From the NCBI GenBank assembly GCA_048887225.1, contig JBHLJY010000006.1, forward strand, positions 32,001 to 96,000: DNA of 64,000 nucleotides, in the 5' to 3' direction. The position numbers and the translations under genes were made by a program. The notes below the pieces were generated by a model, which worked only from the letters and a program-made list of their open reading frames with translations, had not been told where the DNA came from and searched no databases. Positions 57,970 to 60,191 of this stretch are shown piece after piece. The number at the start of each line of letters is the position of its first letter. Positions within the stretch are counted from its first letter, which is position 1. The DNA comes from Candidatus Hodarchaeota archaeon (GTDB taxonomy: Archaea; Asgardarchaeota; Lokiarchaeia; Sigyniarchaeales; SOKP01).

Positions 57970-58338
57970 TTATGATTTTAAAACAAGTGTAATTGCTCTA
58001 GTAAGGCGGATAACATCCATTACTTTTCCCTTTTCAACAGTAATTTGTTCCCTACTGATAACATGAGTGAAATCCCCGCGTCCCTGACAGATATTCACAA
58101 TGGAATTATTATCACCTGTCATAACAATCTCAGGATCAGAGGCAGTTCCATTAATTAGTTTTGCCTTTCTCTCTTTAATTTCCACATAAAACGGATCTTC
58201 ATTTGCTAAATTAAATTGGAAAGTCATTTCCCAATCAACGTCTTTTCCAGCAATATTAGTTACAAAAACTTGTTGTGCTTTCGGGATATTGTTCATTTTT
58301 TCAATGATTTTGCTTAAATTTTCGCTTGCGACACCCAT
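57970..58338 (-). CDS. SCP2 sterol-carrier-like lipid-binding protein
   Basis: SCP2-like pattern (FQF..FYVEI...A....G....P....); co-transcribed with thiolase and DUF35. Confidence 0.7.
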   Translation of the reverse strand: MGVASENLSKIIEKMNNIPKAQQVFVTNIAGKDVDWEMTFQFNLANEDPFYVEIKERKAKLINGTASDPEIVMTGDNNSIVNICQGRGDFTHVISREQITVEKGKVMDVIRLTRAITLVLKS

Positions 58339-58340
58339 AA

Positions 58341-58838
58341 TTACGCGCCTCCCTCGTATTCTGGTTTATTAATCCATGTTTCATATTCATCTTCGGGTAC
58401 AAAGAAGAAATCTGTCATTTTTCCTTCTCTTTCTTTCAAAAACACAGCCTTGACAACCCTGCCTTTCTTAATTTTCGATGGTACTAAGTTTTCCGAGAAA
58501 ATTCCTTGAAGTAAAGCGGTGTCGGCTCCATCCAATTTAACAAAAGCTATGCCATATGGGATTGCTTTTATAAAAGCTGAAGTTGTGTACCAAACGATTG
58601 TACTCACTTCTATCTTTCCCGTTTGCTTCATTTCAATCCAATTGGTAGGCTCATAACATTCAGAGCAGTTGATTCTTGGAGGCATCCACGTTTTTCCACA
58701 TTTGGTACATTTTGTACCTAGGAGTTTTTTGTTGTTTTTTACTTCGATAAAGAACTTCGATTGGCCGCCCATGGTGTATTTGTAGTTAATGGCGATCCTG
58801 TCTCGGATTTCATGTGATTGAAATTTATCGTCATTCAT
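58341..58838 (-). CDS. DUF35 zinc-ribbon/OB-fold protein, cassette 4
   Basis: CTKC..PPRINCSEC; LDGADT; ATGA overlap with the thiolase stop. Confidence 0.92.
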   Translation of the reverse strand: MNDDKFQSHEIRDRIAINYKYTMGGQSKFFIEVKNNKKLLGTKCTKCGKTWMPPRINCSECYEPTNWIEMKQTGKIEVSTIVWYTTSAFIKAIPYGIAFVKLDGADTALLQGIFSENLVPSKIKKGRVVKAVFLKEREGKMTDFFFVPEDEYETWINKPEYEGGA

Positions 58839-60191
58839 GGCTTCTTCAACCCCTCTTCATTTGCCATTACAATAACGGCTGCATAAGCGGCTCCTGGACC
58901 TCCGATCGAATGAGCAATGGACCGACCTTTTTCAATTGTGACTTGGTGTTTGCCAGCATCTCCTCTAATCTGAAGAGCGGCCTCTCCTGTGCTCATTATA
59001 CCAGTCGCGCCCACAGCATGTCCACAGCCAATTAAGCCTCCCGAAGGACAGCATGGCAATTCACCATTTAGCCAAGGACCTTCGCCGGGCTTTTCGAAAG
59101 AATTTTCAATCCAAGGACCGCCTTCTCCGAATGGTACAAAGCCTAATTCTTCATAAGAAATTACTTCTTGACCGCTAAACGCATCGTGGAGCTCTGCAAC
59201 ATCGATTTGTTCCTTAATCTTGTTGTAGTCGAGCCCTGCCATTTTATAAGCTGCTTTAGCAGCTTCAATGTTTGAATAAAGCCGACCAATGCTCTCTCTG
59301 TTTCCGATAAAACAATCTGTATTTGCAGCAGCGACTCCGGTTATCCATGTAGGCTTTTCCACGCCGAGTTCTTTTACTTTTTGTTCGTTTGCAAGGATTA
59401 ATGCGGCAGAAGCCTCGGAATAAAGACAGCAATCCAGGAGTTTGAAGGGATAACAGATAATTCTTGAGTACATAACGTCTTCGACGGTTACCTTCATTGG
59501 CGATTGAGCCTTTGGGTTGAGCAGAGCGTTCCCATGATTTTTAATGGAAACCATAGCCATATAAGCCAAAAGTTGAAAATATTCAACTGATTGTTTGCTC
59601 TTCGGTCGGGTTTCCAAATTCTTTGTAATGTGCATTTACCATAGAAACATATGAAGATGCCGCCATCATGCCCATAGGATATTTACGGAATATCGCGAAA
59701 TGCGAATTAAATTCTTTCATAAGTCATATCCGCAGAATAGGCAATGGCATTTAATACTTCTGGTGTTGTAACTCCTGTTTGCTAACGCTTTAAACTAAAT
59801 ATTTACAAGATTCGTCATAACAGTCGTTACATTTCTCCAAACCAATGCAGAGACACAAATCCGACAATCCAGATGCAACTTCAGCATAAGCCATTCTCAC
59901 AGTATAACCTCCCGTTGCTCCGCCCGACGCAATTCTCGTGCCAGGTTTGTCATTCATGCCAAGATAACTATTAGTAAATATATCGGGCATGAATTGGCGT
60001 TCAAAAAGCTCATTATAAATTCCATAAACCGTGGACTGCAAATCTTTATGTATAATCTCTGCCCCGTTTTTATTTGCATCATCAAGAGCCAATCTAGTGG
60101 CATCAAACGCCAGCTCAAAATACGTTTTATCAAGATACCTTGCTCTAAAAGGAGTAATGCCTACTCCGATTATCGCAACTCTATTTGGCAT
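58835..60191 (-). CDS. Thiolase-fold protein encoded in four exons (60191-59811, 59781-59716, 59681-59595, 59560-58835); 419 aa after removing three BHB introns
   Basis: Joined exons read ...CNDCYDE|QTGVTTPEVLNAIAYSADMTYE|YPMGMMAASSYVSMVNAHYKEFGNPTEEQ|MAMVSIKNHGNALLNPKAQ...; C-terminal AELHDAF and GHAVGATG motifs are intact. The two track ORFs (59790-60191, 58835-59635) are fragments of this gene. Confidence 0.85.
59561..59594 (-). other. Putative BHB intron 3 (34 nt)
   Basis: GAGC-AA|A-CAA...UUG-GCUU-AU|A: helix GAGC/GCUU, bulges AAA and AUA, internal AGUUGAA/UUCAACU stem; in-frame TGA. Confidence 0.8.
59682..59715 (-). other. Putative BHB intron 2 (34 nt)
   Basis: UAUG-AA|A-GAAU...AUUC-CGUA-AA|U: helix UAUG/CGUA, bulges AAA and AAU, internal UCGC/GCGA stem; in-frame TAA. 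Confidence 0.8.
59782..59810 (-). other. Putative BHB intron 1 (29 nt)
   Basis: GACG-AA|U-CUU...AAG-CGUU-AG|C-AAACAG: 4-bp helix GACG/CGUU, bulges AAU and AGC; in-frame TAA. Confidence 0.8.

What the first reader, a model, noticed from the sequence alone, without database searches (positions are those of the whole stretch)
59782..59810. Intron 1: most canonical BHB of the three
Besides the GACG/CGUU central helix and two 3-nt bulges, it has an exon-exon outer helix (CUGUU/AACAG) and an intron stem (CUU/AAG, UAAAU/GUUUA). If retained, translation stops after 133 aa, which is the ORF the track reports.
Basis: seen in the sequence. Interest (0 to 1): 0.75.

Follow-up and report, generated by a model that had tools for sequence, protein, structure and literature searches.

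The report
tRNA-type mini-intron in Asgard thiolase gene
A 29-base insert that breaks a well-conserved thiolase-family gene of an Asgard archaeon has the RNA shape that the tRNA-splicing enzyme cuts. It is the first of three such inserts in this gene, so the message very probably has to be spliced, which the papers I could search document for only one other archaeal protein gene (cbf5).

Summary
On the minus strand, window 59810..59782 is a 29-nt insert in a thiolase-family gene (60191..58835). It has a 4-bp helix GACG/CGUU, two 3-nt bulges (AA|U and AG|C), an intron hairpin and a long exon-exon helix.

Cutting at 2|3 in each bulge joins ...CYDE|QTGV..., which is exactly the sequence of uninterrupted homologues that are 90-96% identical. 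The other two inserts (34 nt each) behave the same way. The joined gene reads 419 codons.

- **Selection:** dN/dS against relatives is 0.03, at dS of about 1.6, so this is not a dead gene.
- **Relatives:** 22 of the 54 copies read from the same family carry 41 such inserts at about 10 positions. Six copies have one at this same spot. They keep the fold with compensatory changes, and their flanking exons pair more strongly than in intron-less alleles.
- **Machinery:** the genome has a two-subunit EndA and a single rtcB gene, which is itself split by a similar insert.
- **Missing evidence:** no RNA data could be obtained, so splicing is inferred, not shown.
- **Caveat:** the free-RNA minimum-energy fold prefers a 5-bp register that would not restore the frame.

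This scan had already noted such introns in other genes of this genome and in rtcB genes of DPANN archaea. I found no paper that describes them in Asgard.

The parts
59782..59810 (-). Intron 1, 29 nt (the finding). Not a multiple of 3, with an in-frame TAA.
   Evidence: removing it restores CYDE|QTGV.
59813..59816 (-). Central helix, 5' strand GACG (last full codons of exon 1).
59810..59812 (-). 5' bulge A A | U; predicted 5' cut between 59811 and 59810.
59788..59809 (-). Intron hairpin (h'): CUU/AAG, a 1-nt bulge G, UAAAU/GUUUA, loop AUUUA.
59784..59787 (-). Central helix, 3' strand CGUU (inside the intron).
   Evidence: C-G here versus U-A in the other carriers.
59781..59783 (-). 3' bulge A G | C; predicted 3' cut between 59782 and 59781.
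59817..59830 (-). Exon-1 strand of the outer helix (GUAAC GA CUGUU A U).
59768..59780 (-). Exon-2 strand of the outer helix (A AACAG GA GUUAC).
59811..60191 (-). Exon 1, 381 nt, 127 codons (thiolase N-terminal part).
59716..59781 (-). Exon 2, 66 nt (QTGVTTPEVLNAIAYSADMTYE).
59682..59715 (-). Intron 2, 34 nt. H is UAUG/CGUA, bulges AA|A and AA|U.
59595..59681 (-). Exon 3, 87 nt.
59561..59594 (-). Intron 3, 34 nt. H is GAGC/GCUU, bulges AA|A and AU|A, with a 7-bp hairpin.
58835..59560 (-). Exon 4, 726 nt including the stop (thiolase C-terminal domain).
58341..58838 (-). Downstream DUF35/ChsH2-type zinc-ribbon plus OB-fold gene. Its start overlaps the thiolase stop.
57970..58338 (-). Downstream gene with a weak SCP2 Pfam match (below the curated cut-off).

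Best explanation
Window 59810..59782 (minus strand) is a bulge-helix-bulge (hBHBh') intron in the pre-mRNA of a thiolase-family gene of an Asgard archaeon. Homologues are named Hermodarchaeota or Promethearchaeota.

Proposed mechanism:
1. The transcript folds so that the last six exon-1 bases (GACG + AA) and the last six intron bases (CGUU + AG) form a 4-bp helix flanked by two 3-nt bulges. An intron hairpin on one side and an 11-bp interrupted exon-exon helix on the other clamp it.
2. The heterotetrameric splicing endonuclease (catalytic alpha plus a beta that lacks the catalytic His) cuts after the second base of each bulge.
3. RtcB joins the exons. The 29-nt intron is released, probably as a circle.

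Introns 2 and 3 must be removed in the same way before the 419-aa protein can be made. Unspliced RNA yields a 133-aa fragment.

Shown: the structure, the exact in-frame junction, selection on the gene, conservation and covariation of the fold, and the presence of the enzymes.
Inferred: the cleavage and the ligation.
For: - **Junction.** Intact homologues (P0002 and others, 90% identical; G124, 96% identical in exon 4) read CYDEQTGVTTPE without a gap. The BHB cuts give exactly that, and the empty sites in G124 and G111 are precise.
- **Not chance.** The per-junction background for the motif is 5.6e-4, and all three inserts meet it. Across 41 inserts in relatives, 28 of 62 strict-BHB cut pairs fall on frame-restoring junctions, against 1.3 expected.
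- **A functional gene.** dN/dS is 0.027-0.040 at dS 1.5-1.8 against G124, G111 and G040. G000-specific codon changes are 79 synonymous against 10 non-synonymous. The spliced reading frame is open throughout.
- **Structure conserved while sequence is not.** Six carriers at this exact site have 96% of the cells of the canonical structure paired, and three pairs show changes on both sides: H pair 3 (C-G/U-A), the first inner pair, and one exon-exon pair. Slid controls give 27-67%.
- **Exon-exon pairing.** It is stronger in carriers (mean -9.4 kcal/mol; G000 is the strongest at -14.4) than in 44 intron-less alleles (-4.0); Mann-Whitney p = 6e-4.
- **Machinery.** There are two EndA paralogues of 201 aa. 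One keeps Tyr/His/Lys and is closest to the catalytic subunits of crenarchaeal heterotetramers (3P1Z_B, 3AJV_B, 2ZYZ_B). The other has Ser in place of the His. RtcB is present. PMC5829648 reports (alpha-beta)2 EndA with the broad-specificity L1 loop for Asgard.
- **tRNA context.** ARAGORN calls introns in 15 of the 32 tRNA genes it detects.
Against:
- The free-RNA MFE uses a 5-bp central helix (U-A48, probability 0.89). The 4-bp register needed for a 29-nt excision is 4.4 kcal/mol less stable. A cut in the 5-bp register would remove 30 nt and leave the frame broken.
- The intron hairpin is weak and AT-rich. The intron with short flanks has an unremarkable energy (z = +0.35), so the significant fold depends on the exon-exon helix.
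- The relatives are kin, so the p-values across them are overstated.
- The only rtcB gene in the assembly is itself interrupted.
Confidence: 0.85

Rival explanations
1. Decaying gene: the three inserts are small hairpin insertion elements (MITE-like) or replication slips that inactivated the thiolase gene, and nothing removes them.
For: Each insert introduces a stop or a frameshift. The sister genome G124 and most relatives lack them. The G000 branch is somewhat longer than the G124 branch.
Against: dN/dS is 0.03, and G000-specific changes are 79 synonymous against 10 non-synonymous at dS of about 1.6. There are no other stops or frameshifts in 1257 nt. The inserts are not repeated elsewhere in the genome. 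There are no target-site duplications. Their ends sit exactly where BHB geometry predicts. Independent genomes keep equivalent inserts under the same constraint (dN/dS 0.029 for L012/L050 and 0.046 for L036/L054).
Confidence: 0.05
2. The insert is skipped at translation (ribosome hopping, as in T4 gene 60 or the mitochondrial 'byp' elements) or is removed by an RNA-processing route other than EndA/RtcB.
For: The size (29-34 nt), the hairpin and the in-frame stop resemble bypass elements.
Against: There are no matched take-off and landing codons: GAA before the insert, UAG before the resuming CAA. The same holds in the relatives. Bypassing does not explain the 4-bp helix with two 3-nt bulges, nor the covariation between exon and intron bases. 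Rfam finds no ribozyme or intron family here.
Confidence: 0.04
3. It is a real BHB intron, but its splicing is conditional. The weak 4-bp register and the need for three excisions would make the thiolase-DUF35-SCP2 operon a splicing-gated switch rather than a passive carrier of a selfish or neutral insert.
For: The competing 5-bp register is present in all six carriers. There are three introns within 250 nt. The downstream DUF35 start overlaps the thiolase stop.
Against: The introns are absent from the closest relatives, with no sign that the operon differs. The patchy, homoplastic distribution fits neutral or selfish turnover better than a conserved regulator.
Confidence: 0.06

Closest known systems
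BHB intron in the cbf5 (pseudouridine synthase) pre-mRNA of Crenarchaeota (Watanabe 2002; Yoshinari 2006; Yokobori 2009, PMC2738675)
   Same: A short intron inside a protein-coding ORF with a BHB motif at the exon-intron boundaries. The host has a hetero-oligomeric EndA. Presence varies among related species (gain and loss).
   Different: The host is an Asgard archaeon, not a crenarchaeon. The gene is a metabolic thiolase-family gene, not cbf5. There are three introns in one gene, with micro-exons of 66 and 87 nt. About 10 insertion positions occur in the same gene across one family, with repeated occupation of the same site by unrelated sequences.
Archaeal pre-tRNA BHB introns, including the many non-canonical and multiple introns of Asgard tRNA genes (PMC11291895; bioRxiv 10.64898/2026.10.13.758758; PMC5829648)
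   Same: The same motif (4-bp helix, two 3-nt bulges, cut 2|3), the same size range, the same predicted enzymes, and the same pattern of frequent gain.
   Different: The substrate is an mRNA. The outer helix is built from coding sequence, so codon choice and even one Val/Thr replacement covary with it.
Ire1-dependent HAC1/XBP1 mRNA splicing with RtcB ligation in eukaryotes (my own knowledge; RtcB in XBP1 splicing is mentioned in PMC8718801)
   Same: Non-spliceosomal removal of a short (26 nt in XBP1) frame-shifting intron from an mRNA by an endonuclease followed by RtcB ligation.
   Different: The endonuclease and the recognition motif differ (twin stem-loops, not BHB), and that system is a regulated stress switch.

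Membership tests
Archaeal hBHBh' intron (EndA substrate) | Two 3-nt bulges on opposite strands, separated by a 4-bp helix. | tested here: met
   GACG/CGUU with AAU and AGC. Caveat: the MFE prefers a 5-bp register.
Archaeal hBHBh' intron (EndA substrate) | Flanking helices h (exon-exon) and h' (intron). | tested here: met
   The outer helix is U-A plus 5 bp plus 5 bp; the inner is 3 bp plus 5 bp.
Archaeal hBHBh' intron (EndA substrate) | Cuts at the symmetric bulge positions yield the functional mature RNA. | tested here: met
   Excising 29 nt gives CYDE|QTGV, identical to intact homologues, and an open 419-codon frame. This was tested in silico only.
Archaeal hBHBh' intron (EndA substrate) | The structure is kept by compensatory change among homologues. 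| tested here: met
   Six carriers: 96% of cells paired, three pairs changed on both sides, slid controls 27-67%.
Archaeal hBHBh' intron (EndA substrate) | The host encodes the splicing endonuclease and the RtcB ligase. | tested here: met
   EndA alpha (Y/H/K) and beta (His to Ser). RtcB on C13, itself interrupted.
Archaeal hBHBh' intron (EndA substrate) | Cleavage by EndA and ligation demonstrated on RNA. | not testable with these tools
cbf5-type pre-mRNA intron of Crenarchaeota | Located in the cbf5 gene of Desulfurococcales or Sulfolobales. | tested here: not met
   The host gene is a thiolase-family gene. The homologues are from Hermodarchaeota and Promethearchaeota.
Translational bypass element (T4 gene 60, mitochondrial byps) | Matching take-off and landing codons flank the gap. 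| tested here: not met
   GAA against UAG. There is no match in the relatives either.
Self-splicing group I or group II intron | A ribozyme core of hundreds of nucleotides, matching Rfam models. | tested here: not met
   The insert is 29 nt, and there is no Rfam match in the window.
Pseudogene | Relaxed constraint (dN/dS near 1) and additional disabling mutations. | tested here: not met
   dN/dS is 0.03, and there is no other stop or frameshift.

The most novel reading that the evidence does not exclude
BHB mini-introns in this Asgard family are a turning-over intron population in protein-coding genes, not a one-off. They repeatedly colonise the same 'proto-splice' sites, where an NN|N bulge follows four bases that the intron can match and where the flanking exons can pair. 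They create micro-exons as short as 16 nt. They recruit codon choice to build the splice structure, and they sit even in the only rtcB gene, so that splicing capacity depends on already-made ligase. That would be a eukaryote-like mosaic gene architecture produced by the tRNA-splicing machinery in the archaeal lineage closest to eukaryotes.
Probability: 0.45. Interest if true: 0.9.

Novelty: new variant of a known kind. Interest (0 to 1): 0.8.

Why it matters
In the papers I could search, archaeal mRNA splicing by the tRNA endonuclease is documented inside a coding sequence only for cbf5 of Crenarchaeota. Here a metabolic gene of an Asgard archaeon needs three such excisions within 250 nt. One protein family shows about 10 insertion sites with rapid, recurrent gain or loss.

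This gives a tractable natural system for three questions: how introns invade coding sequence without a spliceosome, how coding sequence adapts to carry splice structures, and how a cell with coupled transcription and translation copes with unspliced messages.

There is also a practical consequence. Gene callers split such genes into fragments, here 133 aa and 266 aa, so Asgard proteomes and metabolic reconstructions are under-annotated.

Tried and rejected
- **Genome-wide census by ORF merging.** The filter was strict BHB, intron of 18-60 nt, and open frames on both sides. It gave 181,330 motif hits and no excess of true junctions over frame-shifted decoys at any threshold (for example 354 against 318-360). 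The method has no power against neighbouring-gene boundaries. It would also miss this very gene because of its short exons, so it gives no count of introns in the genome.
- **Is intron 1 a repeated mobile element?** blastn-short of the three introns against the genome found only the introns themselves and 14-16-nt chance matches inside unrelated coding sequence.
- **Known RNA families and tRNA genes.** Rfam and ARAGORN found nothing in the window.
- **Translational bypass, group I or II intron, intein, assembly error.** All rejected (see membership tests). Independent assemblies carry equivalent inserts.
- **A 'phase 0 after NAA' rule.** It holds for the three introns of this genome. It is not general: sites 3 and 5 are phase 1 and site 4b is phase 2 in relatives.

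Full report
**What is there.** The window is G000:C6:32001-96000 of a 3.27-Mb, 30.5% G+C archaeal assembly. On the minus strand, a thiolase-family gene starts at 60191 and ends at 58835. It is followed by a DUF35/ChsH2-type gene and a gene with a weak SCP2 match. Its closest solved relative is the archaeal acetoacetyl-CoA thiolase 6ESQ, and NCBIfam gives 'thiolase domain-containing protein' below the cut-offs.

The frame is broken three times. ORF listing gives a 133-aa piece (60191..59790), a 45-aa piece and a 266-aa piece. Close homologues from Hermodarchaeota and Promethearchaeota metagenomes are uninterrupted proteins of 413-419 aa. Aligning one of them (P0002) to the DNA shows four collinear blocks...CNDCYDE / QTGVTTPEVLNAIAYSADMTYE / YPMG...NPTEEQ / MAMVSIKNHG.... 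Inserts of 29, 34 and 34 nt separate them, with no residue gained or lost.

**The finding itself (intron 1, 59810..59782).** Read as RNA, the region is:

GUAAC GA CUGUU A U [GACG] AA|U CUU G UAAAU AUUUA GUUUA AAG [CGUU] AG|C A AACAG GA GUUAC.

- the 4-bp helix GACG/CGUU;
- two 3-nt bulges;
- the intron stem CUU/AAG plus UAAAU/GUUUA;
- the exon-exon helix CUGUU/AACAG.

I add U59817-A59780, which stacks the outer helix directly on the 3' bulge, and a further 5-bp exon-exon helix, GUAAC/GUUAC.

The 66-nt region folds to -16.7 kcal/mol (z = -3.3). The canonical rule, a cut after the second base of each bulge, removes exactly 29 nt. The result is GAC GAA | CAA ACA, that is D-E|Q-T, matching the homologues. 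The fully spliced gene is open for its whole length.

**Is it more than chance?** Loose BHB-like motifs are very common in this AT-rich DNA, so the motif alone proves nothing. The test is coincidence with a junction fixed independently.

- A given pair of cut sites satisfies 'H 4/4, inner helix of at least 3, outer of at least 1' with frequency 5.6e-4 in the window.
- Protein homology leaves at most two or three placements per insert, and all three inserts satisfy the motif.
- In relatives I scored every cut pair within about 10 nt of the insert start, at lengths within 5 nt of the insert length, for 41 inserts. Of these, 2.2% of pairs restore the frame, but 28 of the 62 strict-BHB pairs do (1.3 expected).
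- Most of the 13 inserts that failed the automatic test are pairs of introns only 16 nt apart, which my local-translation check could not handle. Checked jointly, those have H 3/4 or 4/4 with inner helices of 3-11 bp.

**Not a pseudogene.** The spliced G000 sequence was compared with the intact genes of G124, G111 and G040. dN/dS is 0.027-0.040 at dS 1.5-1.8, the same as between intact genes. Changes specific to the G000 lineage are 79 synonymous against 10 non-synonymous. Other intron-bearing pairs show the same (0.029 and 0.046).

**Relatives.** The orthologue was found in 98 of 135 genomes of the family.
- The closest relative, G124 (96% identical in exon 4), and also G111 and G040 have precise empty sites at all three positions.
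- I read 54 copies: the 30 best-matching ones, plus every copy whose open frame was truncated or interrupted in the search tables. This sample is enriched for carriers.
- 22 of the 54 copies carry 41 inserts of 28-35 nt at about 10 positions: 1a, 1b, 2a, 2b, 3, 4a, 4b, 5, 5b and 5c.
- Site 1a, exactly the position of intron 1, is occupied in G000, G081, G075, G068, G150 and G139.
- Site 1b, 3 nt downstream, is occupied in G062, G125 and G058.

The G000 intron (29 nt) shares no recognisable sequence with the other five 1a introns (30 nt) beyond the helix strand. That strand reads CGUU opposite GACG in G000 and CAUU opposite GAUG in the others, a compensatory change.

RNAalifold on the six carriers recovers the same architecture. 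Counting the canonical hBHBh' pairs gives 96.3% of cells paired, three pairs changed on both sides and 0-1 in slid controls.

On a gene tree, (G000, G124) is supported at 0.95 inside an otherwise intron-less clade supported at 0.999. Site 1a needs at least 5 changes for 6 carriers. The same spot has therefore been gained or lost repeatedly. For G000, gain after the split from G124 is the parsimonious reading. This rests on a single gene with saturated synonymous sites, so it is tentative.

**Coding sequence adapted to the structure.** I computed the duplex energy between the 16 nt upstream of the helix strand and the 16 nt downstream of the 3' bulge. It averages -9.4 kcal/mol in the six 1a carriers, with G000 the strongest at -14.4, against -4.0 in 44 intron-less alleles (Mann-Whitney p = 6e-4). 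Kin are not independent, but the carriers sit in at least four lineages.

One exon-exon pair covaries between an Asn third position (AAC/AAU) and a Val/Thr first position (GUU/ACU). There are two possible readings: introns persist only where the exons can pair, or the exons are selected to pair once an intron is there.

**Machinery.** The genome has two 201-aa EndA paralogues.
- One aligns best to the catalytic subunits of crenarchaeal heterotetramers and keeps the His (GLEHSPFIVH against GIDHAPFIVH).
- The other aligns best to M. jannaschii EndA but has Ser where that enzyme has the catalytic His.

This is the (alpha-beta)2 type, which PMC5829648 reports for Asgard together with the L1 loop linked to broad substrate range.

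RtcB is present once. It is itself split at the GGVGY/DINCG motif by a 29-nt insert with helix UUGG/CCAA and a 9-bp hairpin.

ARAGORN detects only 32 tRNA genes, 15 of them with introns. This fits the reports of heavily interrupted Asgard tRNA genes (PMC11291895; bioRxiv 10.64898/2026.10.13.758758).

**Caveats.**
- No RNA data could be reached, so cleavage and ligation are inferred.
- The free-RNA MFE pairs U59817 with A59783, the first base of the 3' bulge. That gives a 5-bp helix (-16.7 against -12.3 kcal/mol; pair probability 0.89 against 0.07). A cut in that register would take out 30 nt and leave the frame broken. All six carriers can form this alternative pair. The enzyme must therefore impose the 4-bp register, or splicing is inefficient. 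This is the main open mechanistic point.

**Comparison with what is known.** In mechanism this is the known archaeal BHB/EndA/RtcB pathway. As a pre-mRNA intron, its only counterpart in the library I could search is cbf5 of Crenarchaeota (PMC2738675). It differs in lineage, in host gene, in number per gene and in turnover. I found no paper describing BHB introns in Asgard protein-coding genes.

Earlier notes of this scan report such introns in other genes of this genome (uL11, lsrF, an acyl-CoA dehydrogenase gene and others) and in rtcB genes of DPANN archaea. I did not test those, apart from finding the rtcB insert of this genome myself.

**Verdict.** It is a new variant of a known kind, and interest is high. 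What is still missing is RNA-level or enzymatic proof.

Noticed in passing
L047 1473..1501 (= G000:C13:33458-33486, + strand): The only rtcB (RNA-splicing ligase) gene of this genome is split at the conserved GGVGY/DINCG motif by a 29-nt insert. It has helix UUGG/CCAA, bulges AU|A and AA|A, and a 9-bp hairpin (MFE -20.5, z -3.4). The ligase message would therefore need the ligase. The Pfam profile matches positions 1-47 and 47-426 in two frames.
   Followed up: partly
L033, L034, L049, L055 (G050, G054, G151, G137), thiolase codons ~148-152: Four relatives carry two mini-introns (28-35 nt and 31 nt) separated by a 16-nt micro-exon (GAATATCCGATGGGAA). Their central helices are mostly 3/4 paired, the inner hairpins are 3-11 bp, and there is no outer helix (relaxed BHB).
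   Followed up: partly
L037-L042, L045, L053 (G021, G102, G100, G075, G099, G068, G146), thiolase codon ~308: A 30-nt insert whose length keeps the frame, with an in-frame TAA. It has helix CUGG/CCAG, bulges AC|A and UC|A, and a 5-bp exon-exon helix. It is nearly identical in 8 copies, and gene callers split these genes into pieces of about 310 and 151 aa (compare P0073 and P0068).
   Followed up: partly
whole genome G000: ARAGORN finds only 32 tRNA genes in a 98%-complete genome, 15 of them with introns (8-268 nt). This suggests that further tRNA genes are too interrupted to be detected.
   Followed up: no
window 58835-58841: The DUF35/ChsH2-like gene starts (58838) inside the stop region of the thiolase gene (overlapping ATGA). 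Translation of the downstream gene may therefore be coupled to that of the spliced thiolase mRNA.
   Followed up: no
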